64,000 bases of DNA. Origin: a bacterium (GTDB lineage: Bacteria; Planctomycetota; JAFGQW01). Location of the stretch: contig JAUHXU010000003.1 in assembly GCA_030426805.1 (NCBI GenBank), forward strand, positions 665,488-729,487. Direction: 5' to 3'. The position numbers were made by a program, and so were the translations under genes. Each line of letters opens with the position of its first letter. The first letter of the stretch is position 1. A model generated the notes under the pieces. That model was not told the DNA's origin, made no database searches, and saw only the letters and a list, made by a program, of their open reading frames with translations. Shown in pieces: positions 2,962 through 53,395 of this stretch.

Positions 2962-4272
<1,311 letters not shown>

Positions 4273-4407: not shown

Positions 4408-4413
4408 CCAGAT

Positions 4414-5556
4414 ATGTCGTCAAAACGCCATTCTGCGAACATGACCTGGGCTCCCGATCGCCCTTACAACGACCTGCCGCCCCTCCCGCCGGCCGCAGAC
4501 GTCGAGACGAAGCCCGTCCTCCGGCGGTGCGCGACCGCGCGAGCCGCCCTCGGCGAGCTCAAACACGCCGTCGACCTGATCCCGAATCAGGGCATCCTCC
4601 TGAACACGCTCCCGCTCCTCGAGGCCCAGGCCAGTTCGGAGATCGAGAACGTCCTCACGACCGCCGATGCCCTTTTCCGCCACCTCGAAGCGGAGCGGGA
4701 CGTCGACCCGGCCACCCGCGAGGCACTCCGCTACCGGGAAGCCCTGATGGACGGCTACCGGGCACTCGCCGACCGTCCGCTCGGCACGCGCACGGCCGAG
4801 GCGATCTGCACGCGCATCAAAGGCGTCGACATGCGCGTCCGCGTCGTGCCCGGCACCACGATCGCGAATGCGGCGACCGCGGAGACGATCTACACGCCGC
4901 CCGACGGCGAGTCCCGGCTCCGCGACCTGCTCGCGAACTGGGAGCGCTTCCTGCACGAACCCTCCGAGCTCGACCCGCTGATTCGGATGGCGATCGCACA
5001 CTATCAGTTCGAGGCGATCCACCCGTTCACGGACGGCAACGGCCGCACCGGGCGGATCCTGAACAGTCTCTACCTCGTGCAGCAGGGGCTCATCGCACTG
5101 CCCGTGCTCTACATGAGCCGCTACATCATCGCAAACAAGCGCGACTACTACCGCATGCTCGCGGCGGTCACGCGCGACGACGACTGGGAACCGTGGATCG
5201 TCTACATGCTGTCGGTGATCACCGACACGGCGCAGTGGACCACGGCCAAGATCTCGGCGATCCGCTCGCTGGCCAACCAGACGAACGAACACGTGCGGCG
5301 CCACCTGCCGAAGATCCACAGTCGCGAGCTGATCGACGTGCTCTTCGAGCAGCCGTATTGCCGTATCGGCAACGTCACCGACGCGGGCATCGTCAGGCGG
5401 CAAGCGGCGTCACGCTACCTGCAGCAGCTCGCGTCGATCGGCGTGCTCGAGGCGCACCGCATCGGCCGCGAGTTGCTGTTCACGCACCCCCGCTTGCTCC
5501 ACCTCCTGACGACCGACGCGAACGACTTCGCGCCGTTCGAGCCTACTGCACCGTGA
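4414..5556 (+). CDS. Fic-family protein (class II Fic AMPylator/adenylyltransferase)
   Basis: Canonical Fic motif HPFTDGNGRTGR is present. An N-terminal inhibitory-helix-like motif SSEIEN matches (S/T)xxxE(G/N). Length about 380 aa. The ORF-track start at 4384 (GTG) lies inside the -35 box, so the ATG at 4414 is preferred. Confidence 0.8.
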   Translation: MSSKRHSANMTWAPDRPYNDLPPLPPAADVETKPVLRRCATARAALGELKHAVDLIPNQGILLNTLPLLEAQASSEIENVLTTADALFRHLEAERDVDPATREALRYREALMDGYRALADRPLGTRTAEAICTRIKGVDMRVRVVPGTTIANAATAETIYTPPDGESRLRDLLANWERFLHEPSELDPLIRMAIAHYQFEAIHPFTDGNGRTGRILNSLYLVQQGLIALPVLYMSRYIIANKRDYYRMLAAVTRDDDWEPWIVYMLSVITDTAQWTTAKISAIRSLANQTNEHVRRHLPKIHSRELIDVLFEQPYCRIGNVTDAGIVRRQAASRYLQQLASIGVLEAHRIGRELLFTHPRLLHLLTTDANDFAPFEPTAP

Positions 5557-6766
5557 AGCCGGCGGTGTTCGCGACCGCTTGCAGGCCGGCGCCGGTGAAC
5601 GTGACGAAGGACACGTAGAAGCGCAGCCCCTGGAGCGGGCCGTTCGGGATCACGACGCCGGCGGCGGCGGTGCCGTTGGCGCCGAGCGTGCCGACGAAGC
5701 CGGGGAAGAGTGCAGGCACGTTCTGGCTCAACAGGAACAGCGTGTCCGGCGTGAGATCGACCGTGCCGATCGGCAGCGCAAACCCCGGTGTGTGCGAGAA
5801 GGACGCAGCCGCGACGTAGTTCGCGCCGGCACTGCCAGGCTCGCTGAAGCGCAGGGCGAGCGTCGTACCCGGCGTCGGGTCGGCGGCCGCGACGACGTTG
5901 CGGCTTCCATAGACCTCGACGTCGAGCGGGAACGGAATCGCGGTCAGCGTCGTCGCGTTCCCGCTGCGATCCACACGAATCAGGTTCGCGTTCGCGGTCG
6001 CGCAACTACCGCCCATGACGAACGCATCCCGCGTGCGATCGTATGCGAGGCCCGGGAAGCAGCCGTTGAACCCGCCGACGATCGTCGTCATCGTGCCGAG
6101 CGTCAGGTTCACCGAGACCAGGCTGTTCTGCTGGCTCACGATCGCCTCGCCGGTGCGGGCATCGCTGATCATGTCGATCGAGTTGTTGATCGCGACCGAA
6201 CCCACCACGAGCGACGACGTGCCGTCGCGTCGCACCGAGAAGAGGTTCGGGATCTCACCCACGAGGTAGCTGCCGGTGCCGATGTCGACCGCCATTCCGC
6301 GCGGCTTGCCGTTGCCGATCGACGGCGCGGGCATGATCGTCGTGACCGCGCCGGTCGCGTCCATCTTGCCGATCATGATGCTGCTCAACCCGATCAGCGG
6401 CACGAGGTAGCTGCCGTCCTGGTCGACCGCGAGGTTCTCGCTGAAGCTGACCGGCAGCGTACCGACGGTCGCGACCGCACCGCCCGGCGACACCTCGGCG
6501 ATGAACGCCGCCGAGCCGGAGCTGCCGAGGACGGCGACATCGCGGTTGTTGGGCGCCATCGTCGCGGCGCTGATCCGGAAGCCGAACGTCGTCATCGTCG
6601 TGATCACGCCGTTGGGCGTCACGGTGAGCAATGCCGCCCCGCCGGTGACGCTCGCCGGGACGACGTAGTCACCCGGGGCCGGTTGGGCCGTCGCGCGAGG
6701 CGCGCCGATCGACGTCGCGAGCGCGAATCCGGCCACGAGCAGCCGCTGTCGGAAAGAGTGGATCAT
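5543..6766 (-). CDS. Secreted hypothetical protein, paralog family with the shared C-terminal domain
   Basis: Start at the ATG for MIHSFRQRLLVAGFALATSIGAPRATAQ (signal peptide) with an AGGAGA RBS. The C-terminus LALRFSEPGSAGANYVAAASFSHTPGFALPIGTVDLTPDTLFLLS...GLRFYVSFVTF is the family signature. The 3' end overlaps the fic stop convergently. Confidence 0.7.
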   Translation of the reverse strand: MIHSFRQRLLVAGFALATSIGAPRATAQPAPGDYVVPASVTGGAALLTVTPNGVITTMTTFGFRISAATMAPNNRDVAVLGSSGSAAFIAEVSPGGAVATVGTLPVSFSENLAVDQDGSYLVPLIGLSSIMIGKMDATGAVTTIMPAPSIGNGKPRGMAVDIGTGSYLVGEIPNLFSVRRDGTSSLVVGSVAINNSIDMISDARTGEAIVSQQNSLVSVNLTLGTMTTIVGGFNGCFPGLAYDRTRDAFVMGGSCATANANLIRVDRSGNATTLTAIPFPLDVEVYGSRNVVAAADPTPGTTLALRFSEPGSAGANYVAAASFSHTPGFALPIGTVDLTPDTLFLLSQNVPALFPGFVGTLGANGTAAAGVVIPNGPLQGLRFYVSFVTFTGAGLQAVANTAGFTVQ

Positions 6767-36352: not shown

Positions 36353-36380
36353 CGAACGCCCGGGGGTTCGACGGCGGTTC
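36353..36380 (-). promoter_or_regulatory. Candidate ECF-type promoter (GGAAC-N18-CGTTC) upstream of the ECF-fusion gene
   Basis: On the minus strand, GGAAC lies at 36380-36376 and CGTTC at 36357-36353. Speculative autoregulated ECF promoter. Confidence 0.25.
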
Positions 36381-36487
36381 CAACCGCTGCCGTGTACGGG
36401 TGGTGGCTACCTGACGCGCCGTTGACGATCGTGCGTGGGCCGGCTACCGTCTGGGCGGTGGTGGCGGGAAGTGACGGGAGCGCAACG

Positions 36488-39109
36488 ATGGGGTATCGAC
36501 TCGCCGGGATCGCGTGCATCGTGTGGGTCGCGTGTGCCGTTTCGGCGCGCGGCCAGGAGACGGTCAGCGACGGTGTGCGACAGGCGCAGGCGTGCTTCGA
36601 TCGGGGCGAGATCGACGACGCACACCGCCTCGTGACGGACGCGATCGACGCCAACGGTGACGACGTCGCGGCGCGCATGCTGCGCGCCGAGATCGGCATC
36701 TTCCGCTTCGATCTCGACGAGGCGTCCGCGGACGCGCGCGCGATTCTCGCGCGCAACGCCGAGCACGTCGGTGCACGCTACATCCTCGCGCGGGTGATCG
36801 GACGCCGCTTCCACGATACCGAGGCACTCGCCGCGCACGAGGCGCTCGCCGAGTCGGCACCCGAGAGCGCGCAGGCGGTGCGGGGTCTCGCCGTCGCGCT
36901 GGCGGCCGTCGAACGCGAGGAAGAGGCGCTCGCCGCCGCGCAACGGGCTATCGAACTCGACGACACCGATGGACGGGCGTGGGTCGTGCTCGCACGGATC
37001 CGCGCCGAGCTCGACGACACCGTCGGCGCGGTCGCCGCCTACGACAAGGCGATCGAGCGCCTGCCGAAAGCGCACCGGCCGTACCAAGGCCGGGCGCTGG
37101 CCCTCGCCGAACTCGGCCGCCTCGACGCGGCACGCGAGGACGCCGAGCGCGCGCTCGAGCAACCGATCGAGCGGCCGCGCGCGCTGCTCACGTTCGCCTA
37201 CGTCATCGGTCAGGCCGATTCCGTGCAGCCGAAGGCCGCGAAGGACGCGATCGACGAGGCGTTCGCCGCGGAGGTGACCGACCCCGACGACCGGTTGGAC
37301 CGCGCGAGCTGGGCGAGCTGGCTCGGAGAACCGTGGCGCGGGAAGGCCGATCTCGCCGCCATTCTCGAGACCCACCCGCACTCGGTGGATGCGCACCGCA
37401 TCCACGCGCGCTCGCTGCTCGCCCGCTACCGCACTCACGACGCGCTGCAAGCCGCTTCGGCGATGCTCGAGCGGCTGCCGGGGAGCTGGCGCGCGCACCG
37501 GATCCGCGGCCGGGCGCACCTGCGCCGGCGCGACTACGACGCGGCGATCGAGGCGCTGGACACGGCCCTCGAGAAACACCCGCGCAGCTACCCGCTGCTC
37601 CTGATGCGGGCGGCGGCGAAACACGAAGGCAAACGCGAAGGCTACGATGCCGACCTCGCGACCGCGATCGAACTCTTCCCCGACCGGCCGGATGCGTATG
37701 CCCAACGCGCGTACTACCGAGAGCGAGCGGACGACTGGAAGGCCGCGCTGGCCGACCGCGACCGCACGGTCGAACTGCGACCGGACAACACGCTGCTTCG
37801 CGCCTTTCGTGCGGTCACTCGAAAGCGCCTCGGCGATTCCGACGGGGCGGCCGCCGACCTCGAGCGCGTCGGCGCCCGCCGCACGTTCGAAGCCGGCGCG
37901 ATCGCGCGACACGCCGCAGAGCTCGCCGAAGACGCGCGCCACGCCGAGGCGGAGCGTCGAATGAAGGACGCGCTGTTCGTGTCGGCCGACTCGGACCTCG
38001 TCTACTACGCCAAGGCGCGAATGGCCGACGACGCCGAGGACCCGAAGGAGGCGTTGGTCGCCGCGAACCGGATGATCGAACTCCGCGACACCGCCGCAAA
38101 CCGTGCGCTGCGCAGTCGGATCTTCGGCTCGCTCGAACGACTCGACGATGCGGTCGCCGACCTCGACCGCGCCCTCGAGCTCGAGCCCGGCGATGCCCGC
38201 ACCCTCGTCTCGCGCGCCTACCTCCACCGCAGTCGCGAGGACACCGAAGCGGTCAGCCGCGACTTCAAGGCCGCGCTCGCGGCCGCACCCGGCAACGACA
38301 CGATCCGGTGCCAGCGCGCATACGCGTGCGGCCCGGAGCGCAGCGACGATGCCCTCGACGAACTGGACGCCGTGCTCGAGAAGGACCCGCGCAACGCGTT
38401 CGCGCTCTCGATCCGCGCGCTCGTCTACATGATGACCGACGAGAGCGCCAAGGCGATGAAAGACGTCGAGCGCGCCCTCGCACTACGCCCCTCCGTCCCG
38501 GACGTCCTGCTCCGCATCGCCCAGGTGCAGCGCGGCGCCGACGAACGGGATGCGTCGATCGAGACGCTCGACGACGTGCTCAACCGCTACCCATACTCGC
38601 TGCGGGCTCGCGAGTTTCGCGCCTACGAGCGCACGGTCGACGAGGACTTCGAGGGTGCGCTCGAGGACGTCGATGCAGCGCTTCGACGCGCCCCCAAGTG
38701 CGCGCGGTTCCGGATGCGACGCGCGGACATCCTGATGCGATTGGAGCGGCCCGACGACGCGCTCGAGGAACTCGACGCGGTGATCGCGGCGGACCCGAAG
38801 AACCGCGACGCGCGCAGCCAGCGCGGCTACCTTCTCGCGATGCGCAAGGCGTTCGACCGCGCGCTCGAGGACTACGACGTGCTGGTCAAGCTCGACCCGA
38901 AGGACGCGCAATCGCTCGCGACGCGCGCCTGGATCCACGTCCAGCTCGAGAACTGGGACGAGGTGATCGAGGACTGCGACGCGGCGATCGAGGCCGACCC
39001 GAAGCTCGCCGTGGCCTACCACTACCGCGGCCAGGCCCGCGCAGCGCTCGGCGACCAAGTCGGTGCCGGCGAGGACTTCGAGCGCTACGAGGAGCTGCGC
39101 CAGCGGTAG
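36488..39109 (+). CDS. Secreted TPR-repeat protein (about 870 aa)
   Basis: Signal peptide MGYRLAGIACIVWVACAVSARGQ. Many tetratricopeptide-like repeats (AxxxYxxAIELDPxxAxAxxxRA pattern). It is divergent from the ECF-fusion gene. Confidence 0.8.
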   Translation: MGYRLAGIACIVWVACAVSARGQETVSDGVRQAQACFDRGEIDDAHRLVTDAIDANGDDVAARMLRAEIGIFRFDLDEASADARAILARNAEHVGARYILARVIGRRFHDTEALAAHEALAESAPESAQAVRGLAVALAAVEREEEALAAAQRAIELDDTDGRAWVVLARIRAELDDTVGAVAAYDKAIERLPKAHRPYQGRALALAELGRLDAAREDAERALEQPIERPRALLTFAYVIGQADSVQPKAAKDAIDEAFAAEVTDPDDRLDRASWASWLGEPWRGKADLAAILETHPHSVDAHRIHARSLLARYRTHDALQAASAMLERLPGSWRAHRIRGRAHLRRRDYDAAIEALDTALEKHPRSYPLLLMRAAAKHEGKREGYDADLATAIELFPDRPDAYAQRAYYRERADDWKAALADRDRTVELRPDNTLLRAFRAVTRKRLGDSDGAAADLERVGARRTFEAGAIARHAAELAEDARHAEAERRMKDALFVSADSDLVYYAKARMADDAEDPKEALVAANRMIELRDTAANRALRSRIFGSLERLDDAVADLDRALELEPGDARTLVSRAYLHRSREDTEAVSRDFKAALAAAPGNDTIRCQRAYACGPERSDDALDELDAVLEKDPRNAFALSIRALVYMMTDESAKAMKDVERALALRPSVPDVLLRIAQVQRGADERDASIETLDDVLNRYPYSLRAREFRAYERTVDEDFEGALEDVDAALRRAPKCARFRMRRADILMRLERPDDALEELDAVIAADPKNRDARSQRGYLLAMRKAFDRALEDYDVLVKLDPKDAQSLATRAWIHVQLENWDEVIEDCDAAIEADPKLAVAYHYRGQARAALGDQVGAGEDFERYEELRQR

Positions 39110-39112
39110 CCG

Positions 39113-40318
39113 TCAGTGCTGCACGACCGTCTCGGTGTTTCCGACGAGGAACCCCCCGGGCTGCGCGGGATCGATCACGACGCCCGACACGTGGATGGGC
39201 GTGCCGACCGGAACGTGTGCCGGGATCGTGAAGTAGCCGTTGGCGCTGTTCGTCGGTCGCATCGTCCCGGTGAAGGCCTGTGTGAAGAACGGTTGGCCGC
39301 CGCACACGGTCGCGAAGAACAATCCGTCCGGCGCGAGGTTGATGCGGCCGGCGCCCGGGATCGTCAGGCCGGGCGCCACGCCGAGCGATAGCGCGAGGCA
39401 GTACGGCTTCCCCGCCGATCCGGCGAAGTAGAGGATCACGTTCACGGACGACGGTCCCGTCGCGACGACACGCACACTGATCCGCTGGTCACCGAAGACA
39501 TCGATGCCGGAGATCGAGCCCCTCGTCGTGGAGCGTCGTCGCACGAACGCCCCGGTGTTCGTCAGCTCGTAGAGAACACCCTCGGCGGTTCCGACGTAGA
39601 GTCGGCTCGTGCGCTGGTCGTAGGCGCAGCAGTTGCCGCGCACGTTCGTCGGCAGGACCACGCTCCGTTGCAACGTCCCGCTCGAGCTGTAGATCTGCAG
39701 CGGTGTCGTGGTCGACAAGAACGTCACCGCGTACTGATCGATGTCGGGCATGTAGCAGATGCCCGTCGCACCGCTCGGGATCAACGAAAGCCGCGTCATC
39801 GACTGCCCGTTGAACGGAACGACGGCGAGAACCTCCGGGGCCGGTGCGGTCGTGACGAACGCCCAGTCCCCGGTTCGCAGGTTGCGGCAGATCCCGTTGA
39901 CCGTCGCGCCGGACGCATTGTGGAAGACGGAACTCCCGCCGGAGATCCCCTTCGTCACGAGCCCGGCGGTGCTCGCCGAGCAGATGTAGCGGTGCTCGGT
40001 GTCGAGGTCGATGCCGGTCGCCCACCCGCTCGTGAGGCTGGTCAACGAAAACACGGTGCCGGCGACCGTCAGCTGGAACATCGCGCCCGTCGCGCTTCCG
40101 CCGACGACGCTCTGGTTGCCGCTGGCGGTCTTGATGCACTGCAACCGGATCGACCCGACGCCGGTGCCCGGCCACACGCTCTCGGCGCTCGAGAAGTCGG
40201 CCGGCAGGTGAAACACACCGGCCGTCGTCGAGAAGACGATCTCGCCTTCGGCGGGTTGTGCGTGGGCACCGGCCACACAACCGATCGCGACCGCGACCCC
40301 AGTCAAGAGCCGCTTCAT
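39113..40318 (-). CDS. Secreted hypothetical protein, paralog family (tandem copy B)
   Basis: MKRLLTGVAVAIGCVAGAHAQPAEG... with a GGAGAC RBS. It is about 80% identical to the upstream copy. The ORF-track entry 39113-41662 merges it with an out-of-frame artefact. Confidence 0.8.
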   Translation of the reverse strand: MKRLLTGVAVAIGCVAGAHAQPAEGEIVFSTTAGVFHLPADFSSAESVWPGTGVGSIRLQCIKTASGNQSVVGGSATGAMFQLTVAGTVFSLTSLTSGWATGIDLDTEHRYICSASTAGLVTKGISGGSSVFHNASGATVNGICRNLRTGDWAFVTTAPAPEVLAVVPFNGQSMTRLSLIPSGATGICYMPDIDQYAVTFLSTTTPLQIYSSSGTLQRSVVLPTNVRGNCCAYDQRTSRLYVGTAEGVLYELTNTGAFVRRRSTTRGSISGIDVFGDQRISVRVVATGPSSVNVILYFAGSAGKPYCLALSLGVAPGLTIPGAGRINLAPDGLFFATVCGGQPFFTQAFTGTMRPTNSANGYFTIPAHVPVGTPIHVSGVVIDPAQPGGFLVGNTETVVQH

Positions 40319-40329
40319 GTAGGTCTCCA

Positions 40330-41535
40330 TCAATGCTGCACGATCGTCTCTGTGTTGCCGAGCAGGAATCCGCCCGGCTGCGCGGGGTCGATCACGACGC
40401 CCGATACGTGGACCGGCGTGCCGAACGGCACGTGCGCGGGGATCGTGAAGAAGCCGTTCCCGCTGTTCGCCGCGCGCATCGTCCCGGTGAACCCTTGCGT
40501 GAAGAACGGCTGGCCGCCGCACACGGTCGCGAAGAACAGCCCGTCCGGCGCGAGGTTGATCCGGCCGGCGCCCGGGATCGTCAGGCCGGGCGCCATCCCG
40601 AGCGAGAGCGCGAGGCAGTAGGGTTTCCCCGCCGACCCGCGGAAGGACAGGATGACGTTCATGTCGACCGGTGAAGTCCCGAACACGCGGATGCTGATCC
40701 GCTGGTCGCCGAACACGTCGATCCCGTTGATCGCGCCGCGTGTCATCGCCCGTCGACGAACGAACACGCCGGTGTTCGTCAGTTCGTAGGCAACGCCCTC
40801 GATCGTGCCGACGTAGAGTCGGCTCGTGCGCTGGTCGTACGCGCAGCAGTTGCCGCGGACGTTCGTCGGCAGGAACACGCTCTGACGCAGCGCTCCGGTC
40901 GAGCTGTAGATCTGCAGCGGCGTCGTGGTGGACAGGAACGTCACCGCATACTGATCGACGTCCGGCATGTAGCAGACGCCGGTCGCCCCGCCTGGAATCG
41001 TCGCGAGCCGGGTCAGCGACGCACCGCTGTGGGAGACGACACCGAGGTAGGTCTGCGTCGGCGCCGTCGTGACGAATGCCCAGTCCCCGGTTCGCAGGTT
41101 GCGGCAGATCCCGTTGACGGTCGCGCCGGACGCATTGTGGAACACCGAACTTCCCGCGGAGATCCCCTTCGTCACGAGCCCGGCGGTGCTCGCGGAGCAG
41201 ATGTAGCGGTAGTCGGTGTCGAGGTCGATGCCGGTCGCCCAACCACTCGTGAGATTGCCGAGCGTCACGATCGAGCCGCCGGTCGTGATGCGATACATCG
41301 CGCCGGAGATGTCCCCGCCGACAACGCCTTGGTTGCCGTAGGCAGTCTTGATGCACTGCAGGCCGAGGGAGCCGATACCGGTGCCCGGCCAGATGCTCTC
41401 GGCGGTCGAAAAGTCGGCCGGCAGATGGAACACGCCGGAGGTGGTCGAGAAGACGATGTCGCCTTCGGCGGGTTGCGCGCTCGCGCCGGCCACACAGCCG
41501 ATCACGATCGTGAGGGCGATCAGAAGTCGCTTCAT
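40330..41535 (-). CDS. Secreted hypothetical protein, paralog family (tandem copy A)
   Basis: MKRLLIALTIVIGCVAGASAQPAEG... with a GGGAGAC RBS. It ends ...PAQPGGFLLGNTETIVQH, as copy B does. Confidence 0.8.
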   Translation of the reverse strand: MKRLLIALTIVIGCVAGASAQPAEGDIVFSTTSGVFHLPADFSTAESIWPGTGIGSLGLQCIKTAYGNQGVVGGDISGAMYRITTGGSIVTLGNLTSGWATGIDLDTDYRYICSASTAGLVTKGISAGSSVFHNASGATVNGICRNLRTGDWAFVTTAPTQTYLGVVSHSGASLTRLATIPGGATGVCYMPDVDQYAVTFLSTTTPLQIYSSTGALRQSVFLPTNVRGNCCAYDQRTSRLYVGTIEGVAYELTNTGVFVRRRAMTRGAINGIDVFGDQRISIRVFGTSPVDMNVILSFRGSAGKPYCLALSLGMAPGLTIPGAGRINLAPDGLFFATVCGGQPFFTQGFTGTMRAANSGNGFFTIPAHVPFGTPVHVSGVVIDPAQPGGFLLGNTETIVQH

Positions 41536-41712
41536 GTCGGTCTCCCAAGAACGGACGAGCCGTCAGACGGCCCGCGGGTCGGAAGCCCGATGTCACGAGT
41601 GCCCTCCGGATATCAGGAAAGTGCGTCGGGAAGTTGAACGATAGAGAATCGCTTGACACCACGCGCGCGACAGCGGTCCAATGCGAGCCCAGCCGACGAT
41701 CGCGAGGAACCG

Positions 41713-42882
41713 ATGATGCGTGCCGTGCTCTTCCTACTGATGCTGGCCGTCGGCGCGGTCGGGGCGCAATACCAGCCGGGCGACCTGCTGTTCGCGGTCG
41801 ATACGCAATCGCCGGGCACCTACCTGCTCATGCGGTACACGCCGACGTCCAACGTCCCTTCGACGGTGGTGGGCTTCCCCGGGGCGCCCCGCACGATCTT
41901 GTCGAGCCCGGACAACCGATCGATGCTGATCTCGACGTGGGGCAAGACCCTCGCCGTGCCCCCCAACGGCGTCGTGCAGACCGTCTCCGGAACGGTCCCC
42001 GGTGCACTGATGGAGCTGGACGGCGCTGGACGGCTGTGGGGAAGCGACTTCGGCGTGCGCACGGTCGATTTCTTCGACTTCACCCCGGCGGGCCCCGCCC
42101 GGCTACGAACCTACAACGTGTTGGCATGGGGCAATCCGGTGTTGGAGCCGCACTCGGGACACGCGATCGACACGTTTGCGAATCGGGCGTACACACTGCA
42201 CGGGCCGAGCGTGACGACCACGCTCAATCTGCCGAGTTTCGCCGGCGCCAACGCAGAGTGGTCGCCCGAGCTCGCAGCGATGGTCGGCAAGCACGGCGAC
42301 CACCTCGCGGCGTTCACACTCGCGTCACCGCCCCTCGTGACGACGTTGGTGACCAACGCCAAGCCGAACGTGATCGAACGCGGACCCCGGGGCACCCTCT
42401 TCTCCATGAGCCTATGGCACAACCGCATCGACGAGTTCGATCCGATCCAAAACGTCACGATCCGCAGCCTCCCTCTGCCGCCCCGGTCGCAACCGCTGAT
42501 GGCCGTCGCCCGCGGCCGCACGCTGGCCGGCCTGGGGCCTGCGACCCGCGGTTCAACGTGGCCGCTGCGCATCTCGTTTCCCGGCGAACCGGGCGCCCTC
42601 TACATGTCGGCGATCGCGTTCTCGATCCACCGCGGATCCCCGATCGGCAACGGGTTTCGCCTCTTCCTGGCGCACGATCCGCTCCTTCGGCTCTCCGTTA
42701 CCAACGCCGGCCTCTTCACCGGAATGCACGGCCAATTGGACGCGCGCGGCGAAGCCTCCGCACGGGTGACCATTCCGCAACTCGCCGGGCTCGCCGGCCT
42801 GCGCATCTTCGCCCAGGCGATCGCAATTCGTAGCGGCCGGGTCGTCGGCGCATCGGCGCCGGTCGGCGTGACGATCCCGTAG
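41713..42882 (+). CDS. Secreted hypothetical protein, paralog family
   Basis: MMRAVLFLLMLAVGAVGAQ (signal peptide) with a GAGGAA RBS. The C-terminus LRISFPGEPGALYMSAIAFS...GLRIFAQAIAI is the family signature. Confidence 0.7.
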   Translation: MMRAVLFLLMLAVGAVGAQYQPGDLLFAVDTQSPGTYLLMRYTPTSNVPSTVVGFPGAPRTILSSPDNRSMLISTWGKTLAVPPNGVVQTVSGTVPGALMELDGAGRLWGSDFGVRTVDFFDFTPAGPARLRTYNVLAWGNPVLEPHSGHAIDTFANRAYTLHGPSVTTTLNLPSFAGANAEWSPELAAMVGKHGDHLAAFTLASPPLVTTLVTNAKPNVIERGPRGTLFSMSLWHNRIDEFDPIQNVTIRSLPLPPRSQPLMAVARGRTLAGLGPATRGSTWPLRISFPGEPGALYMSAIAFSIHRGSPIGNGFRLFLAHDPLLRLSVTNAGLFTGMHGQLDARGEASARVTIPQLAGLAGLRIFAQAIAIRSGRVVGASAPVGVTIP

Positions 42883-42918: not shown

Positions 42919-45516
42919 ATGCCGTACGCTCTCCGCGCATTGCTCGCGGTCTTCGCACTCCTCGTGTCCGGCTGTGGCGGCGGAGAAGCGCCCGAGCCCC
43001 CGATCGCGACGGCCGTCACGCAACTGCGGGTTCAGGACGTCGTCCGCGACGAGAAGCTGATGGGGCTCGACATCAGTTGGCGGGGCAAGCTGGATCCGGC
43101 GGCAGTGAAGGCGTTGCAGGCGCACTCGGCGATCGCCGGCGTCGACCGGCGCATGGACGAAGCGTCCGGGACGATGCGCGTCGACGTTCGTGCGAACCAC
43201 GGCGACCTCGCCCGGCTGATCCTCTACACCGACCCGAAGTCCGATGATGTGCTGGGCTACTACTGCGAGTTGCGGAGTCCGGCACGCAAGCCACGTCGCC
43301 CGGGCCCCGACGCGTGGGGTGAGCGATGCCGTCGTCAGTTCGAGATGAGGCCGCTCGGTTTCTTCGGCACGGTGGACTCGCAAGGACCCACGCTGGTCTT
43401 CGACACGGACCTGCCCCGTCGGTATGCCGCGGTGCGGGATCGGCGCCTGGTCGGTTTCCTCGTCGCGACGGCAGACTTCTTCCGTCCGGATTGCCACGGC
43501 TTCCAGTCGCGGGCCGAGATCCTCGCCGACGCGAAACGACGGATCGAGGAGAAGCGCCCGCGCGAGAACCCGCTGATCGACTACGAGATCGCGGGCGTCG
43601 AGTTGAAGGAGGTCGGCCGCCAGTTGGCGGCACTGCGCAAGACGATCGCCAAAGAGCGCCACCGGGAGCAGCAGCGAGAAGGCGCGAAGCGGTGGGAGGC
43701 GTTTCTCGCGGAAGTGCGCGACGAGCCGTTCGACGTGAAGATGCAGCGCTACGCGGATGCGTACGGGCGACTGCCGACGTCCGGACGGTTCGCCGTCGAC
43801 CGGGCGCTCCGCGCCGACGCGCGGCGCGAGCTGGAGGCGACGGACGTCGGGGTCGCGCGGCGTTCGATGCTATCCAGCCTCGCGAAGTCGGGCTACCTGT
43901 CCCGGGCGAAGACGCTCCTCGCGTATGCGAATACGATCGATGGTTCACCGAACCTCGAGGCACTCGGAGCGTGGTATGCAAATCGCGACCCGCGCGCGAA
44001 CAAGCGGTTCGCCCAACGCGTCAACCAAGCGGTTCGGTTGCGCGCGTTGCACTTGCTCGCGGCCGAACGCAAGGCGCTCGCGAACCGAACGGGCGGCGCA
44101 ACGTACACCGCGCTCGGCGCGGTGAGGCGCGCGCTGAACGCACGACGCACGACGGTGACGCTCGACCTCCGCGCGACGGAGCGCTGGCTGGAGACGTGTC
44201 GCGCGTTCGACACGCTCACCGATCCGTTCGAGCGGGTCGCCGCAGCACCGTGGCTGACCGCGCCGACGAAGGCTGTCGGGGAGCGGGTCGCGCGGGCCGT
44301 TTGCCCCGCGTTGAAGCGCCAGCTGGTCGAGCGGGCGGGCGCCGCTGCCGAAGCCGGCCGGAAAGCGACGGCGGCAGCGTGCTGGCTCGCGGCGGCCGTC
44401 GCGGGCCGCGACACGTGGCCGACCGCGACGACCGGGGAGCAGCTCATCGGCAAACGGGCCACCCCGGACGATCCGCTGGCGCAAGCACGACACGCGTTGC
44501 TGATCGAGAGCCTGCAGTTCGTACCGACGCCCGACGACGGCGCGCGCGACCTCGACCCGGTGCTGATCGACGGGGCGGCGCTGGAGTGGCCGATCGTGTC
44601 CAAGCTCGGCATCGCCTACTCGCCGAGCGCGAGGCGACGAAAGGCGATCAACGAGATCGGTGGCCGAACGGACAAGGTCACGCGCCTGCTCCGTCGCAAC
44701 GGCCGTGTCGCGTGGGTCGACATCCTGCGCTCGACGCCTGACGAGCGCCTGCCCGGGACACCGGTTCAGTTCCTCGCGCCGACGCGTGACGCACTGTCGG
44801 CGAAGTCGCGCAGAGAATCCGACGCGCTGAACCGCGAGAGCGAGGCATTGCGTGCGCGGGCGAAGGAACTCGAGGACTTGCCGCCGACCAAGGACTCCAA
44901 CGAGTTCGCGCGGCGATGGAAGATGCGCGAGGAGTTCGCGAAGCGACAACAGCGCTACAACGAGCGTACGGCCGAATGGGCCGACGCGGCGGCGAAGGAA
45001 CTCGCGCCTCGCTACGCCCGCGTGCGCTACGCGCGACGCACAGTGCTCGACGACTACGTCGACACGAGCTTGTTGGTCTACTCGCGACAGGTGGGCCGCA
45101 GCCTCGGCGGCGGCGAGGCGAACGAACGCGAGGTCGCGTGGATGCGCTGGTTCTTCGGGCGATCGACGCCGGGGTTCGAAGGGCTGCCGATCGAGCGGGG
45201 TGACAATCCGAACACACGCATGCGACGGTGCGATCGCCTCGAGCGGGAGGCACTGGAGCAGCCGGGCCGAGCCGAGATGGGGCGTGCAATCGCGCGCTTC
45301 TGGGACGCGGCCGAGGCGTGCGACCTCCCCCGGCGCGCCCCGCGCACGCGCAAGCTGCTCGATCAATACCGGACGACGTTCACGGCCGCACATGTGCTCG
45401 AGCACGTCGTCAAGGCGGCGAAACACGGCAAGACGCTCGAAGCCGAGGTTCTCTCGAAAGACGAGCGCCAGGAACTCGAGCGGAGCGAGCAGCGAAAGAA
45501 AACGCGACGCCGCTAA
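42919..45516 (+). CDS. Large hypothetical lipoprotein (865 aa)
   Basis: Lipobox LLVSGCGGG. Charged and helical; no recognisable domain. Confidence 0.65.
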   Translation: MPYALRALLAVFALLVSGCGGGEAPEPPIATAVTQLRVQDVVRDEKLMGLDISWRGKLDPAAVKALQAHSAIAGVDRRMDEASGTMRVDVRANHGDLARLILYTDPKSDDVLGYYCELRSPARKPRRPGPDAWGERCRRQFEMRPLGFFGTVDSQGPTLVFDTDLPRRYAAVRDRRLVGFLVATADFFRPDCHGFQSRAEILADAKRRIEEKRPRENPLIDYEIAGVELKEVGRQLAALRKTIAKERHREQQREGAKRWEAFLAEVRDEPFDVKMQRYADAYGRLPTSGRFAVDRALRADARRELEATDVGVARRSMLSSLAKSGYLSRAKTLLAYANTIDGSPNLEALGAWYANRDPRANKRFAQRVNQAVRLRALHLLAAERKALANRTGGATYTALGAVRRALNARRTTVTLDLRATERWLETCRAFDTLTDPFERVAAAPWLTAPTKAVGERVARAVCPALKRQLVERAGAAAEAGRKATAAACWLAAAVAGRDTWPTATTGEQLIGKRATPDDPLAQARHALLIESLQFVPTPDDGARDLDPVLIDGAALEWPIVSKLGIAYSPSARRRKAINEIGGRTDKVTRLLRRNGRVAWVDILRSTPDERLPGTPVQFLAPTRDALSAKSRRESDALNRESEALRARAKELEDLPPTKDSNEFARRWKMREEFAKRQQRYNERTAEWADAAAKELAPRYARVRYARRTVLDDYVDTSLLVYSRQVGRSLGGGEANEREVAWMRWFFGRSTPGFEGLPIERGDNPNTRMRRCDRLEREALEQPGRAEMGRAIARFWDAAEACDLPRRAPRTRKLLDQYRTTFTAAHVLEHVVKAAKHGKTLEAEVLSKDERQELERSEQRKKTRRR

Positions 45517-45821: not shown

Positions 45822-47115
45822 GATGAGAACCCGGGCAGCACTCCACGCGGCTGCACTCGTCGCGATCACCGCGATCGCCGCGCCGAGCCAGGACCGCTTC
45901 GTCGTCGCCGGCTGGACGACGTCGACGCCGCAACCGCTCCTCGAGATGGACGCGACCGGAACGTCGTTCACGACCGTCCTGACGTTTCCGTGGAACTTCG
46001 GTGTCCACGAGATTCGCATGGCCGACGACAACCGGTCGTATCGGATCTTCGGCCGCGACACGCAGCTCGGGCCACAGGCGATCCTCGACGCCACCGGCGG
46101 CGTGCTCACGACCGTCGCGAGTGGCGGGCCGTTGTTCCTCGCGTTCGGCGGCGTCAGAAACAGCGACGGCGACTGGTACGTGCTGAACCGCACCCCGCTC
46201 AGCGACCTGACGATCCTGCGGCTGCGAGGGAACACACTCACCCAGCTCTCGACGGCCGGCAAGATCACGCCGATCGCACTGACGCGCGACGAAGCGACCG
46301 GCCAGTTGATCGTGCGTGGCACGATCATCGGCGGGGCGTCCGGCTACTTCCGGATCGACCCGAACACCGGCACGGTCACGAGCCTCGCCGCGCGTGCGGC
46401 GAACACCACCGCGACCGGCAGCGTCGAGTTGCTGTACGACCCGGCGACCGGTGGCGTCATCGACGGACAGCGGATCAACCTCGCCGCGCAGGTCATGCTC
46501 GTCGATCCCACGTTCGGCGAGGTGCCGTTCGGAGCGGCGCTGCAAACCCATGTGCCGATCGGCATGGCGCGGTCCGGCCCGCGCCGGCACCCGGTGGCCT
46601 ACTACCTGCTCACGCACCAGACCGCGGGAAATCCGCACGTCTTCCAGTATCAGGGGGATGGGTCGATCACGGTCACGTCGTCGTTCCCGACCCCGATCTT
46701 CCCCGCTGCGTTCGCCCGCATCGGCGCGCGCCACCTCGCGTGGTTCGTCAACCGCGCGCCGAACGACCGGCGGCTACGCGTGTCGTTCCCCGGCGAAGGG
46801 GGCAAGGCGTACACGGTCGCGTTCAGCCTGACCGGAATGCGGCCGGGCATCGGACTCCCGGACGGCCGCACGATCCCGCTCGTCGTCGATGCGCTGACGG
46901 TGGCGTCGCTGGCCGGCGGGATTCCGAACGTGCTCCAGAACACGGTGGGATTCCTGAACGCGCAGGGGCAGGCGGTCGTCACCGTCGACACGAGTCGCTT
47001 CGGGAGCGCGCTGAAGGGGCGCAAGGCCTGGGCCGTCGCCGTGCTGCTCGACCCGGCCAGCCCGACGGGAGTGGCCTACATCACGAAGCCGACGCTCCTC
47101 GAAATCAACGAGTAA
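45822..47115 (+). CDS. Secreted hypothetical protein, paralog family
   Basis: MRTRAALHAAALVAITAIAAPSQ (signal peptide). The C-terminus LRVSFPGEGGKAYTVAFSLTGMRPGIGLPDGRTIPLVVDALTVASL is the family signature. Confidence 0.7.
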
Positions 47116-47133: not shown

Positions 47134-49614
47134 TCAGTTGATGCGGAAGCTCTCGGTGTTGGAGATCGAGTGGATGCCCTGGGGGGCGCCGGGCTTGAAC
47201 GTGACGAACGCGGAGTAGACGAACAGCCCGATCAGGGCTTGCTGGTTCGGGACGCGCACCGTCGCGAGACCGGCACCGTGGTTGTCCAGCACGCCGCCGT
47301 AGCCGGCGAACGTGCCTGGCGCGAGACCACTCGTCGACAAGAGCAGCAGCGCATCCGCGCTCAACCCGAGCGGACGCGTGCCGATCGGCGTCGGCCCCGT
47401 CCCGAGCGATGAGCCGACCTGATACGAAAGGCCCCCGTCGTCGGAGAGGTTCAGCGTGACGAGCCCGCCGATGCGCGATGAGCCGCCGACCTTCAGATCG
47501 GTGGTTTGGATCTTCGCGACGAACTGGTCGGCGCCGCTACTGCTCCGGTTGTACGTCAGGTCGGGACCGACACGCACCGGGAACTGCGTCTGGTTGGCCC
47601 AGGTCGAGCCGGCCACCCAGGCGTTGTTTCCGAGCGGGTCGGTCGCGCACGCCCGTCCATCATCGGAGAGCGCGCTGCCGAGGAGCGTGCAGTACTCGAG
47701 TGCGGCGCCTGCGGGGTCGACGCGCGCGATGAACGCGTCGCCGTTGCCGAGGTACGGAAACGACGGGCCGACGACCAGGAAGTCCGAGCTGCGCGTCACC
47801 CCGACGACCGTCGCGCGACCGCCGGCGTCGACGGCGACCGCATCCGCCGAGTCGTACGCCGATCCTCCGATGTAGCCGAGATACTCCCAGCCGCTCCCGT
47901 CGGGTCGGAGCCGCCCGACGAATCCGTCGTGGGTCGCACCGGAGCTGCGATGAACGAGGCCCGGTCCGACCGCGACGGGAAAGGTCGACTCGGTACTCAG
48001 CGTCCTGCCGCACACCGAGGCCCGGCCGGTGGGGTCGACGGCGATGCCCGAGAAGTCGGCCCCGCGGATGCCACCGATGAACCCGCAGAAGTCGAGCGAC
48101 GCACCGCTGGCGTTCACCTTCGCGACGAAACCCTCCGGGGGCTGCGTCGGCGACTGGCGCACGAGTAGCGGACCGACGCGAACGGGCAGGCTCTGCTCAT
48201 CGCTCGTCGTTGCGCCGACCACATACGCGGCGCCCCACGGGTCGACCGCGATCGCCCGACCGGTCTCCTGCCCGGCGCCGCTGATGAAACCGCAATAATC
48301 CAGACCGCTTCCGTCGGGCTTCACCCGCGCGACGAGGACCGACTGGGAGCCGTTCGCCTTCAACGACGGTCCCACCCTGATCGGGAGGGAGGCCTGCGGA
48401 CTGGTCGTCGCGCCGACGACGTAGGCGCTACCCAGCGCGTCGACGGCGATCCCGGTAAGCTGATCGAGCCCCGTACCCCCGATGTAGCCGCAGTAGTCGA
48501 GCAGCCTTCCGTCGGGGCGAACCTTGGCGACGAACCCGTCATACCCGCCGGCGATCGTCAACGACGGTCCGCCGACGACCGGGAAGGTCGCCTCGGTACT
48601 GTCGGTCGTTCCGGTGACGTACGCCGCGCCGGTCGCGTCCACCGCGATCCCGATGCCCGAATCCCTGGAAGCGCCCCCGATGAAGCCGCAGTAGACGAGC
48701 CCCGTGCCGTCGATCCGCACCTTGGCGACGAATGCATCGCTGAAGGAGCGACTGTTGTGTGTCAGATCCGGTCCGACCTTGACGGGGAATGTCGTCTCGT
48801 CGGAGAACGTGCTTCCCGTGACGTAGAGCGCACCCTTCGGGTCGACCGCGACATCCGTGATGGAGCCGGACTGTGCGCCGCCGAGGTAGCCGCAGTAGAT
48901 CAGCATCGGCGGGTCGATCACGAGCGGGCGCGTTCGGTCGTAGGCGGCCACGTCGAACGCGACGTCGCATCCATCCGGCGCCGGGTTCACGACGAGCGTC
49001 GCTGCGACGGACTCTCGCGTATCACCCGCGAGCTGATGCACGACCGGTGGCTCTTCCTCGATCTCGCCGGCCGGCGTGATCACGCGGAGCCCGCCGGCGT
49101 CGGTGCGCGCGATGCGCTCGGCTCCCTTGTAACGGAACCGCGCACGCGTCGGGTCGGCGCCCGGGTGAACGACGGCATCGTATTTGAGTCGACTGCCGAC
49201 GATCTTGTAGACGACGTCGATCCCCGGCCAGACGTCGCGGTAGACGATGCGCTCGTATGTCGGGAGCCCGGCCTGCGATCGGCCGCCGCCTCGGAAATAG
49301 CTCACGACCGTGTCGGCCTTCGCTTCGCCCACCGGCACGACCTCGGCGCCGTCGACGAACGAGAGCTTCACCGTCCACGCCGGTTCGCCCGCGAGCCGAA
49401 ACGTCACGCCGCTCGACGTGAAGAACACGGTCCGTCCGCTCGCTTCGACGAAGTAGCGAACCGCGGTCGGATAACGACCGCGGTTCTCCACGAGCGGCGT
49501 GGACAGGCCGCTCATGATCGCCTCGGCCTTTGCCCGCGAAACCGTCTGGGCAGCCGCGGAGCACCCAATGGCTGCGAGCAGAAGCGCAACCGAGCAATCT
49601 CGAACTCGACCCAT
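47134..49614 (-). CDS. Secreted beta-propeller (SBBP) repeat protein carrying the paralog-family C-terminal domain
   Basis: Signal peptide plus possible lipobox (LLLAAIGCSAAAQ). At least seven repeats DGFVAKVxxDGSGLxYCG(Y/F)IGGxxxDxGxGIAVDxxGxAYVTGxTxSxxxFPV match the SBBP pattern. The C-terminus PIGTRPLGLSADALLLLS...GLFVYSAFVTF is shared with the paralogs. GGAGGTG RBS. Confidence 0.8.
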   Translation of the reverse strand: MGRVRDCSVALLLAAIGCSAAAQTVSRAKAEAIMSGLSTPLVENRGRYPTAVRYFVEASGRTVFFTSSGVTFRLAGEPAWTVKLSFVDGAEVVPVGEAKADTVVSYFRGGGRSQAGLPTYERIVYRDVWPGIDVVYKIVGSRLKYDAVVHPGADPTRARFRYKGAERIARTDAGGLRVITPAGEIEEEPPVVHQLAGDTRESVAATLVVNPAPDGCDVAFDVAAYDRTRPLVIDPPMLIYCGYLGGAQSGSITDVAVDPKGALYVTGSTFSDETTFPVKVGPDLTHNSRSFSDAFVAKVRIDGTGLVYCGFIGGASRDSGIGIAVDATGAAYVTGTTDSTEATFPVVGGPSLTIAGGYDGFVAKVRPDGRLLDYCGYIGGTGLDQLTGIAVDALGSAYVVGATTSPQASLPIRVGPSLKANGSQSVLVARVKPDGSGLDYCGFISGAGQETGRAIAVDPWGAAYVVGATTSDEQSLPVRVGPLLVRQSPTQPPEGFVAKVNASGASLDFCGFIGGIRGADFSGIAVDPTGRASVCGRTLSTESTFPVAVGPGLVHRSSGATHDGFVGRLRPDGSGWEYLGYIGGSAYDSADAVAVDAGGRATVVGVTRSSDFLVVGPSFPYLGNGDAFIARVDPAGAALEYCTLLGSALSDDGRACATDPLGNNAWVAGSTWANQTQFPVRVGPDLTYNRSSSGADQFVAKIQTTDLKVGGSSRIGGLVTLNLSDDGGLSYQVGSSLGTGPTPIGTRPLGLSADALLLLSTSGLAPGTFAGYGGVLDNHGAGLATVRVPNQQALIGLFVYSAFVTFKPGAPQGIHSISNTESFRIN

Positions 49615-52162: not shown

Positions 52163-53395
52163 TCAACGCACCGAGAACGCGGCCGACGGGGCGACGTCGA
52201 TTCCCCCCGGAAACGCCGGGTTCTCCGCGACCGCAGCGACGAACAGCCGAAGCCCGACGGGCGCCGACGCCGGCAGCTTCACGGCGATCGTCGCCGAGCC
52301 GTTCGCATCCAGCCGCCCGCGCAACCCCTGCGTCACGCCCGGGATGTCGCCGTTGCCGATCGTCACCCGCGCGAGCGCGTCGATCGCGAGGTTGATCGTC
52401 CGGCGACCCGGCAGCGGAATCGCCGGCCGCAGTCCGGACAGCGACATTGCGGCGCGATACGGTCGGCCGGCGCTGCCCGGCATCGACAGGCGAAGCGAGT
52501 ACGTCGTGCCCGGGCGCGCGCTCCCGCTCCCGACGAGCTTGTGGCTGCCGTAGATCGCGATCGACCGGAACACCTGACTGTGCTCGCGTTTCACCGGCCA
52601 CGTGCGCAACACCGCGCCCTTCAGGGTCACCTCGAGGATATCGTCGAGCCGCACGAGGAAGAGGTTACCGGTCTCCGGGTCCGTCGTCACCGAGTAGAAC
52701 CCACCCGGCCCTTGCCATTGCAATACGGTTCCGCCGTTCTGATCGAGCACGAGGTAGTCGCTGACGGTCGAGGAGGCGTTCCCCACGACGGCGTAGTTCC
52801 CGCTCGCGTCGTCGAACGACACGACACCGGGAAACGGCAACGTCGTCAGCGTCGTGATCGCGGATCCCGTCATGCGGAGCAGATGCGCCCCACTCGGAGA
52901 GGTGGTGCCGCTGCGAGCCACGACGATGTCCCCGGAGTCGCGATCGATCGTCGGAAAGCCCGCACCACTCGAGAACAGCGCCACGGTGCTGAAGAGCCCG
53001 GAGGCGGACAGGCGGACCACCGCCGCCGATCGCGACGTCACGAACCCGGCGATGAAGCGCCCGTCCTGGTCGAGCGTCATGCCGGCCATGCCCGAATACA
53101 TCGACGTCGCGTACGACTGCGCGGACACGAGCACGCCGCTCGGGGACATGCGTCCGAAGATCAGCGGCCTGGCCTGGTCGACGATCCGAATGTCGGTGTT
53201 GTTCGCCGCCATCCACACACTTCGTCGCGAGTTCGACGGCAGCGGACCGACCAGCGCTTCCGCGCCGGTCACGCGATCGATCGATCGCACGCCGGTGTCG
53301 GACGACACGAGGAGGTCGCCCGGCTTGGGCTGGGCCCCGACGCCGGCCGTGACGGCGGCGAGCACGAGCGGGGCGAGGACGATACGGGCGATCAT
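52163..53395 (-). CDS. Secreted hypothetical protein, paralog family
   Basis: MIARIVLAPLVLAAVTAGVGAQP (signal peptide). The C-terminus YSLRLSMPGSAGRPYRAAMSLSGLRPAIPLPGRRTINLAIDALARV...GLRLFVAAVAE is the family signature. Confidence 0.75.
   Translation of the reverse strand: MIARIVLAPLVLAAVTAGVGAQPKPGDLLVSSDTGVRSIDRVTGAEALVGPLPSNSRRSVWMAANNTDIRIVDQARPLIFGRMSPSGVLVSAQSYATSMYSGMAGMTLDQDGRFIAGFVTSRSAAVVRLSASGLFSTVALFSSGAGFPTIDRDSGDIVVARSGTTSPSGAHLLRMTGSAITTLTTLPFPGVVSFDDASGNYAVVGNASSTVSDYLVLDQNGGTVLQWQGPGGFYSVTTDPETGNLFLVRLDDILEVTLKGAVLRTWPVKREHSQVFRSIAIYGSHKLVGSGSARPGTTYSLRLSMPGSAGRPYRAAMSLSGLRPAIPLPGRRTINLAIDALARVTIGNGDIPGVTQGLRGRLDANGSATIAVKLPASAPVGLRLFVAAVAENPAFPGGIDVAPSAAFSVR

What the first reader, a model, noticed from the sequence alone, without database searches (positions are those of the whole stretch)
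39113..41535. Near-identical tandem duplicate of a paralog-family gene
Genes 40330-41535 and 39113-40318 (both minus strand) encode 401-aa proteins that are about 80% identical along their whole length (MKRLL...GNTET(I/V)VQH). Each has its own GGAGAC RBS, and the downstream ATG overlaps the upstream stop by a single base (TGATG). This is a recent tandem duplication, and a substrate for recombination or copy-number variation. The ORF track fuses copy B to an out-of-frame artefact (39113-41662).
Basis: seen in the sequence. Interest (0 to 1): 0.5.

Follow-up and report, generated by a model that had tools for sequence, protein, structure and literature searches.

The report
Old tandem pair of secreted propeller genes
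Two adjacent genes encode 80%-identical secreted proteins from an unnamed family; the duplication is real but old, both copies are kept by selection, and the finding is ordinary.

Summary
Genes 40330-41535 and 39113-40318 (minus strand) encode intact 401-aa proteins that are 322/401 (80%) identical with no gaps. They are 11 nt apart, and each has GGAGAC four bases before its ATG. The labels "near-identical" and "recent" do not hold. Nucleotide identity is 82%, dS is about 0.5 and dN/dS about 0.26. That matches the divergence between orthologues from different metagenomes (dS 0.58). The longest identical run is 41 nt, and there is no sign of gene conversion. The three nearest relatives (55-70% identity) are single-copy, and A and B group together, so the duplication is specific to this lineage.

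The proteins have a signal peptide, a six-bladed NHL/YWTD-like beta-propeller and a conserved C-terminal beta-sandwich (AlphaFold2 pLDDT 92.9). They match no Pfam or NCBIfam model, yet belong to a family of about 2000 clusters. Six full-length members lie in this 64-kb window. Some relatives carry an N-terminal protease domain, and only one polar propeller residue is near-invariant. I therefore infer non-catalytic, exported binding proteins whose two copies have diverged on three variable patches. The result is ordinary; the unnamed C-terminal domain is the only mildly interesting lead.

The parts
40330..41535 (-). Copy A (P0001). 401 aa: signal peptide 1-20 (ASA|QP), six-bladed beta-propeller about 27-274, C-terminal beta-sandwich about 280-401.
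39113..40318 (-). Copy B (P0002). 401 aa, 80% identical to A without gaps, same architecture, all nine Cys conserved.
40319..40329 (-). 11-nt spacer between the stop of A (TGA 40332-40330) and the ATG of B (40318). It holds most of B's Shine-Dalgarno-like GGAGAC (40328-40323). The short distance suggests co-transcription.
   Evidence: Sequence read; upstream comparison. Co-transcription is inferred.
41540..41545 (-). GGAGAC ribosome-binding site of copy A, 4 nt before the ATG at 41535.
41536..41712 (.). 177-bp divergent intergenic region between copy A and the family member on the opposite strand. It is the presumed promoter region for the A-B unit.
   Evidence: No sigma-70-type consensus was found, so the promoter is inferred only.
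41713..42882 (+). Divergently transcribed distant member of the same family (389 aa, signal peptide ...GAVGA|QYQPGD).
   Evidence: BLASTP against the 52163-53395 product, E 1e-13, full length; family HMM, E 2e-53, but this sequence was in the training alignment; only weak against the A/B orthogroup.
45823..47115 (+). Another full-length family member (about 430 aa).
   Evidence: family HMM, E 2e-45; not in the training alignment; start codon and signal peptide.
52163..53395 (-). Family member P0006 (410 aa), 27-28% identical to A and B over the full length.
   Evidence: tblastn, E 7e-19; hhalign, 98.6%.
5543..6766 (-). Distant family member (about 407 aa).
   Evidence: hhalign, 94.6%; BLASTP against the 52163-53395 product, E 5e-20.
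47134..49614 (-). DUF7948 + SBBP propeller protein. Its last ~175 residues (about 47137-47661) are the same C-terminal beta-sandwich domain as in A and B.
   Evidence: Pfam; domain i-E 1.8e-14, HMM positions 224-399; alignment A4.

Best explanation
An old, lineage-specific tandem duplication of one gene from a large, unnamed family of exported proteins. The duplicated unit is about 1.2 kb and covers the ribosome-binding site plus the coding sequence.

Shown:
- The two genes lie head to tail, 11 nt apart.
- Both are intact and evolve under purifying selection.
- Their differences cluster in the signal peptide and in three patches, at residues about 65-97, 157-180 and 284-299. These stretches also vary among the orthologues.

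Inferred:
- The pair is co-transcribed from the divergent intergenic region upstream of copy A.
- Each product is exported by the Sec pathway and cleaved at AxA|Q.
- Each folds into a disulphide-stabilised six-bladed NHL/YWTD-type beta-propeller followed by a conserved C-terminal beta-sandwich.
- The propeller works as a non-catalytic ligand-binding surface.
- The C-terminal domain supplies a function common to the whole family, such as attachment or partner binding.
- The two copies have been retained because they differ in what they bind.
For: Duplication and its age:
- 80% amino-acid and 82% nucleotide identity with no gaps.
- dN 0.127, dS 0.495, omega 0.26 by NG86, and 0.24 by LWL85. No 40-codon window has omega above 0.65.
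- (A,B) is supported by 51 informative sites against 18 and 16.
- The orthologues are single-copy with unrelated neighbours.
- Runs of identical third codon positions show no excess (P 0.77), so there is no recent gene conversion.

Fold:
- AlphaFold2 with 100 sequences gives pLDDT 92.9 and pTM 0.91.
- Foldseek, run on the high-confidence model, gives E 5e-12 to LRP6.
- The family profile matches PknD-NHL-derived Pizza proteins (E 5e-22) and LRP2 (E 1e-18).

Export:
- A20 and Q21 are conserved in 90% and 99% of 100 family members.
- The mature protein keeps 8 Cys, all conserved between A and B.

Binding rather than catalysis:
- N68 is the only polar propeller residue conserved in 90% or more of the family.
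- Relatives carry trypsin-like or matrixin domains N-terminal to the module.
- The C-terminal domain also follows SBBP and FG-GAP propellers.
Against: - There is no experimental or annotation-based functional evidence. Pfam and NCBIfam give nothing for A or B, and no source names any family member.
- A few family members give weak SGL, strictosidine-synthase or Vgb-lyase hits, so an enzymatic role is not excluded.
- Co-transcription and the promoter are inferred. No sigma-70-like promoter was found, and the one terminator-like site (inside copy B) is no more than chance gives.
- The organism is unidentified.
- Diverged ligand specificity rests only on where the substitutions fall. No window shows dN/dS above 1.
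- The signal peptide was judged by inspection, not by a predictor.
Confidence: 0.7

Rival explanations
1. One reading: a recent tandem duplication that is still near-identical, and so an active substrate for unequal recombination and copy-number variation.
For: The arrangement is head to tail. Both copies are the same length with no indels. Some 60-nt windows reach 95-97% identity.
Against: - There are 218 nucleotide differences and dS is about 0.5. That is comparable to orthologues in different metagenomes (P0004 against P0005, dS 0.58).
- The longest identical run is 41 nt.
- Even the most similar 40-codon windows have dS of 0.22 or more.
Confidence: 0.05
2. A much older duplication whose copies are kept similar by occasional gene conversion (concerted evolution). 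On this view the A-B sister relationship misleads about its age.
For: Identity is mosaic: 58-97% per 60-nt window and dS 0.22-0.84 per 40-codon window. The longest identical run is marginally longer than in permutations of all sites (P 0.046).
Against: - Runs of identical third positions show no excess (P 0.77).
- Low-dS windows are also low-dN windows, and they coincide with blocks conserved among orthologues. Heterogeneous constraint explains the mosaic.
- All three nearest relatives are single-copy.
Confidence: 0.1
3. One copy is redundant and on its way to becoming a pseudogene.
For: With P0003 as outgroup, copy B has accumulated somewhat more amino-acid changes than A (34 against 20).
Against: - The asymmetry is not significant (chi-square 3.6).
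- Both reading frames are intact, and all nine Cys and the family-conserved residues are kept.
- Pairwise omega of 0.26 is incompatible with one lineage evolving neutrally for most of the time since duplication.
Confidence: 0.05
4. The proteins are secreted enzymes of the SMP-30/gluconolactonase/strictosidine-synthase type (lactonase, lyase or hydrolase) rather than binding proteins.
Against: - A and B have no Pfam hit even at E up to 1.
- The best structural matches are non-catalytic YWTD and NHL propellers.
- Only one polar propeller residue (N68) is near-invariant in the family. The A/B orthogroup has replaced several of the family's conserved Asp (N146 and R148 in place of D).
Confidence: 0.2

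Closest known systems
NHL-repeat / YWTD (LDL-receptor class B) six-bladed beta-propellers, e.g. the M. tuberculosis PknD sensor domain, TRIM-NHL, and nidogen/LRP4/LRP6
   Different: A and B match no Pfam NHL or Ldl_recept_b model. Sequence identity to the structural matches is 9-14%. The propeller is followed by a family-specific C-terminal beta-sandwich instead of EGF or filamin modules. The A/B orthogroup carries eight mature-chain Cys, including a vicinal CC.
SMP-30/gluconolactonase/LRE-like (SGL, PF08450) and related calcium-dependent phosphotriesterase-fold enzymes
   Different: A and B do not reach any threshold. No conserved set of metal-binding or catalytic residues is seen in the family alignment.
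Propeller-plus-Ig-like surface proteins, e.g. the archaeal S-layer YVTN propeller + PKD protein (PDB 1l0q) and Bacteroides BT_3476-type auxiliary binding proteins (PDB 3tc9)
   Different: No sequence relationship was detected for the C-terminal domain. Domain order or blade number differs: 1l0q is seven-bladed, and 3tc9 has its Ig domain first (both from my own knowledge of those entries, not tested here).
Ordinary diverged tandem paralogues in expanded bacterial gene families
   Same: Head-to-tail copies with a duplicated ribosome-binding site, purifying selection on both, and divergence concentrated in variable segments.
   Different: Nothing distinctive was found.

Membership tests
Recent or near-identical tandem duplication | Nucleotide identity close to 100% and synonymous divergence close to 0 | tested here: not met
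   82% nucleotide identity, dS 0.495. The longest identical run is 41 nt.
Tandem paralogue pair (any age) | Adjacent, same strand, full-length homology, and each other's closest relatives | tested here: met
   11-nt spacer. 322/401 identities with no gaps. 51 informative sites for (A,B) against 18 and 16. The relatives are single-copy.
Six-bladed beta-propeller superfamily (NHL/YWTD/SGL; Pfam clan Beta_propeller) | Six four-stranded blades around a central axis | tested here: met
Six-bladed beta-propeller superfamily (NHL/YWTD/SGL; Pfam clan Beta_propeller) | Sequence match to a curated repeat or domain model (NHL, Ldl_recept_b, SGL) at its gathering score | tested here: not met
   A and B match 0 Pfam families at E up to 1. 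At the family-profile level there are matches to NHL-derived Pizza proteins (E 5e-22) and LRP2 (E 1e-18), so the relationship is at superfamily level only.
SGL / calcium-dependent phosphotriesterase-type enzymes | Conserved metal-binding or catalytic residues (Glu/Asn/Asn/Asp type) lining the central tunnel | tested here: inconclusive
   Only N68 is a polar propeller residue conserved in 90% or more of 100 members. No residue-level superposition on an enzyme was possible with these tools.
Type IX secretion C-terminal sorting domain (TIGR04183 Por_Secre_tail) | Match of the extreme C-terminal beta-sandwich to the NCBIfam/TIGRFAM model | tested here: not met
   A, B and two paralogues give no such hit at E up to 1.
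Sec-exported protein | N-terminal signal peptide with a basic n-region, a hydrophobic h-region and an AxA cleavage motif | tested here: met
   MKRLLIALTIVIGCVAGASA|QP in A and ...GAHA|QP in B. A20 and Q21 are conserved in 90% and 99% of the family. The model shows a helix at 2-18. This was judged by inspection; no signal-peptide predictor was available.
Lipoprotein | Conserved lipobox Cys at the end of the h-region | tested here: not met
   A and B have VIGC (Cys14), but P0005 lacks the Cys and no Cys is conserved in the wider family. The conserved feature is AxA|Q.

The most novel reading that the evidence does not exclude
The roughly 120-residue C-terminal beta-sandwich is the best-conserved part of A and B (85% identity) and of the whole family. 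It sits at the extreme C-terminus of nearly all family members checked. It also follows unrelated propellers (SBBP, FG-GAP) and occurs downstream of protease domains. It matches no Pfam, NCBIfam or PDB sequence. It could be an undescribed sorting, anchoring or common-partner domain for a large set of exported proteins in this bacterial lineage, with the propellers supplying variable specificity.
Probability: 0.2. Interest if true: 0.5.

Novelty: new member of a known kind. Interest (0 to 1): 0.2.

Why it matters
As a duplication it matters little. It is a normal, old, selectively maintained tandem paralogue pair inside an expanded family. It is not a hotspot of ongoing rearrangement.

The family itself deserves a note. 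The exhaustive profile search found about 2000 clusters (at 50% identity) with E up to 1e-3, and 843 with E up to 1e-10. The proteins are about 400 aa, exported, and built as propeller plus beta-sandwich. They have no curated model and no name. Six members lie within 64 kb here. A Pfam-style description of the module, and especially of its C-terminal domain, would annotate many hypothetical proteins.

Tried and rejected
- Pfam and NCBIfam scans of A, B and the paralogues found nothing usable.
- The word-indexed homologue search found only 5 proteins for A. With the C-terminal-domain alignment it found only 4, so it added little.
- A genome-contig scan with the orthogroup alignment found no relative.
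- The second genome-contig scan used the window's AdoHcy hydrolase to place the organism. It was uninformative: the best hit was 75% to a Verrucomicrobiae MAG, and hits were spread over many phyla.
- An exact look-up of P0001 found no contig on record. The cluster look-up gave no names or accessions.
- The afdb50 fold library was unavailable.
- Synteny between the window and the orthologue contigs L001-L004 was tested with tblastx. Only the gene itself matches, so the ancestral single-copy locus could not be reconstructed.
- The promoter and terminator scan found no promoter-like site and one terminator-like site, inside copy B, which is no more than chance gives.
- Rfam and tRNA scans of the window found nothing.
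- A lipoprotein reading of the VIGC motif was rejected, because the Cys is not conserved.
- A T9SS-type C-terminal domain was rejected at the sequence level.
- The YN00 dN/dS estimate failed with a numerical error, so NG86 and LWL85 were used.

Full report
**1. The observation**

The ORF list and the sequence show two minus-strand genes, 40330-41535 (copy A) and 39113-40318 (copy B), each encoding 401 residues. BLASTP gives 322/401 identities (80%), 358/401 positives and no gaps. At the nucleotide level 988/1206 positions agree (82%). The differences fall 62, 40 and 116 on codon positions 1, 2 and 3.

Copy A stops at TGA 40332-40330 and copy B's MKRLL start is at 40318, so the spacer is 11 nt. 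GGAGAC lies four bases before each ATG, at 41545-41540 for A and 40328-40323 for B. Upstream of the ATGs only about 13 nt are shared (GGAGACC-AC). The duplicated unit is therefore the ribosome-binding site plus the coding sequence, about 1217 bp.

An ATG at 40330 does overlap the stop of A (TGATG) and is in frame with B. But homology with A and with all orthologues (M[KMR]R[LRI]L) places the start at 40318.

The 849-aa ORF 39113-41662 in the mechanical ORF list is B's frame staying open through A in another frame. This is common at 70% G+C: the window is 69.6% G+C and both genes have GC3 of 0.89.

**2. Age and mode of the duplication**

- NG86 gives dN 0.127, dS 0.495 and omega 0.26. LWL85 gives omega 0.24.
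- For scale, A and B against the nearest outside relative P0003 give dS 0.73 and 0.77. The orthologues P0004 and P0005, from different metagenomes, give dS 0.58.
- The copies are therefore as diverged as orthologues of separate populations or species. They are not "recent" or "near-identical".
- With P0004 and P0005 as outgroups, 51 informative nucleotide sites support (A,B), against 18 for (A,P3) and 16 for (B,P3).
- Protein identities agree: A-B 80%, A-P0003 70%, B-P0003 67%.
- P0003, P0004 and P0005 are single-copy on their contigs, with unrelated genes on both sides. tblastx finds no flank synteny with the window.
- The duplication therefore arose in the window's lineage after it split from that of P0003.

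Identity along the genes is mosaic, at 58-97% per 60 nt. The low-identity blocks are residues about 65-97, 157-180 and 284-299, plus the signal-peptide core. These are the same blocks that vary among the orthologues. No 40-codon window has dS below 0.22 or omega above 0.65. Runs of identical third positions are no longer than in permutations (P 0.77). I therefore see no recent gene-conversion tract and no window-level signal of positive selection.

Copy B has slightly more lineage-specific amino-acid changes than A (34 against 20), which is not significant (chi-square 3.6). Both copies keep all nine Cys. The longest perfectly identical stretches are 41, 37, 34 and 32 nt. From general knowledge of recombination between diverged sequences, this is a poor substrate for unequal crossing-over.

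**3. What the proteins are**

Neither copy matches Pfam or NCBIfam, even at E up to 1. The word-indexed search of 5.8 billion proteins finds only five close sequences: A, B, and P0003-P0005 at 70-55% identity. None has a name.

An exhaustive profile search used those five plus two window paralogues. It finds 1984 representative clusters at E up to 1e-3, 843 at up to 1e-10 and 118 at up to 1e-30. Nearly all are about 400 aa and match end to end.

AlphaFold2 with seven sequences was mediocre (pLDDT 72). With 100 family members it gave pLDDT 92.9 and pTM 0.91. The model shows:
- an N-terminal helix at residues 2-18, the signal peptide;
- 24 strands forming a propeller at residues 27-274;
- a beta-sandwich at residues 280-401.

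The 100-member profile also detects, by sequence, the Pizza designer proteins (E 5e-22) and LRP2 (E 1e-18). From my own knowledge, the Pizza proteins derive from the PknD NHL propeller. Nothing in the PDB matches the C-terminal domain. Among the 100 members, a handful give weak SGL, Mal s 1-like, DUF6923, NHL, strictosidine-synthase or Vgb-lyase hits.

The propeller therefore belongs to the six-bladed NHL/YWTD/SGL superfamily, but the family has no curated model.

**4. Hints to function**

- The family's most conserved N-terminal feature is A20-Q21-(P)-x-x-G25-D26, directly after the hydrophobic helix. This fits signal-peptidase I cleavage at AxA|Q.
- The lipobox-like VIGC of A and B is not conserved.
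- Within the propeller, N68 is the only polar residue conserved in 90% or more of members. The other conserved positions are Gly and blade-motif Asp (LDQDG, DxDTGD, VDxxTG). The A/B orthogroup has partly replaced these, with N146, R148 and Y109. That pattern fits a structural or binding propeller better than an enzyme with a fixed catalytic set, though it does not exclude catalysis.
- Longer relatives carry a trypsin-like domain (4 of 10 examined) or a matrixin domain N-terminal to the module. That is what one expects of a targeting or binding module.
- The C-terminal sandwich is the best-conserved part of the family and of the A/B pair (85% against 79% for the propeller).
- In the long relatives with N-terminal extensions the match ends within a few residues of the protein end (12 in P0119), and likewise in the top ~400-aa hits I inspected.
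- The same C-terminal domain ends the DUF7948/SBBP protein at 47134-49614. It also ends an FG-GAP protein found with the domain alignment (P0156).

My reading, as inference, has three parts. These are exported binding proteins. The C-terminal domain supplies a shared function such as anchoring or a common partner. The propeller supplies the specificity.

**5. Genomic setting**

A family HMM run over all window ORFs finds six full-length members:
- B and A;
- 41713-42882 (+), divergent from A across 177 bp;
- 45823-47115 (+);
- 52163-53395 (-), which is P0006;
- 5543-6766 (-).

It also finds the C-terminal-domain fusion at 47134-49614. P0012, another member, lies on the same 1.12-Mb NCBI contig. 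The tandem pair is thus one step in a broader family expansion.

Flanking genes are a large TPR protein that converges on B, with the two stops 3 nt apart. Beyond it lies an ECF-sigma / CarboxypepD_reg ORF. No sigma-70-like promoter was found, and the one terminator-like site (inside copy B) is no more than chance gives. Co-transcription of A and B is inferred from the 11-nt spacing only.

The organism could not be placed. One relative, P0005, occurs in a run (SRR24442555) that is cited in the biofloc aquaculture metagenome paper PMC10582022.

**6. Verdict**

"Near-identical" and "recent" are not supported, and "recombination substrate" is weak. This is an ordinary, old, selectively retained paralogue pair in an uncharacterised but widespread family of exported six-bladed-propeller proteins. 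Interest is low (0.2). The only lead with some novelty is the unnamed C-terminal domain shared by several propeller classes.

Noticed in passing
window 5543-6766(-), 39113-42882, 45823-47115(+), 52163-53395(-): Six full-length members of one unnamed family lie in this 64-kb window. Each has a signal peptide, an NHL-like propeller and a C-terminal beta-sandwich. Three of them (B, A and the divergent 41713-42882) are directly adjacent. At least one more member (P0012) lies elsewhere on the same 1.12-Mb contig.
   Followed up: yes
window 47134-49614 (-), C-terminal domain about 47137-47661: A DUF7948 + SBBP beta-propeller protein ends in the same C-terminal beta-sandwich domain as the family (domain i-E 1.8e-14). 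Elsewhere the domain follows an FG-GAP protein (P0156), and the whole module follows trypsin-like or matrixin domains. It has no Pfam, NCBIfam or PDB sequence match.
   Followed up: partly
window 32827-36756 (-): One uninterrupted ORF combines ECF sigma-factor regions 2 and 4 (residues about 174-317) with a hydrophobic stretch containing a (VAT)n repeat and six or more CarboxypepD_reg domains. It may be a sigma factor fused to a membrane-spanning extracytoplasmic extension rather than separate sigma and anti-sigma genes. The real start is probably near MRISLDELL.
   Followed up: partly
window 39107-39115: The 1007-aa TPR gene (36086-39109, +) and copy B (stop at 39113-39115, -) converge with only 3 nt between their stop codons. 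That leaves no room for intergenic terminators.
   Followed up: no
window 42919-45516 (+) and 53410-56394 (+): Two large ORFs (865 and 994 aa) with coding-like GC3 (0.85-0.89) have no Pfam match. The first sits between family members.
   Followed up: no
window 63005-63955 (-): A probable lipoprotein (MNDHRRIGTMAALACALVCIVGC...) has a weak match to the family HMM (E 3e-06). It looks like a gluconolactonase-type propeller from its sequence motifs, but it was not scanned against Pfam.
   Followed up: no
L001 4886-6094 and L004 4715-5917: In the contigs carrying the single-copy orthologues P0005 and P0004, a second ~400-aa protein about 4 kb upstream shares the C-terminal domain (32-39% identity over 64-85 residues). 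It is closest to the window's 41713-42882 product. Family members therefore also lie near each other in relatives.
   Followed up: partly
window 2803-4272, 4384-5556, 13872-17501, 26436-27446, 56399-59329, 60587-62014: The ordinary genes of the window are AdoHcy hydrolase, a Fic/SoFic-like protein, an AcrB-type transporter, a sulfotransferase, GH92 with an F5/8 type C domain, and a PLD-like (cardiolipin-synthase-type) protein. The whole window has no tRNA and no Rfam match.
   Followed up: partly
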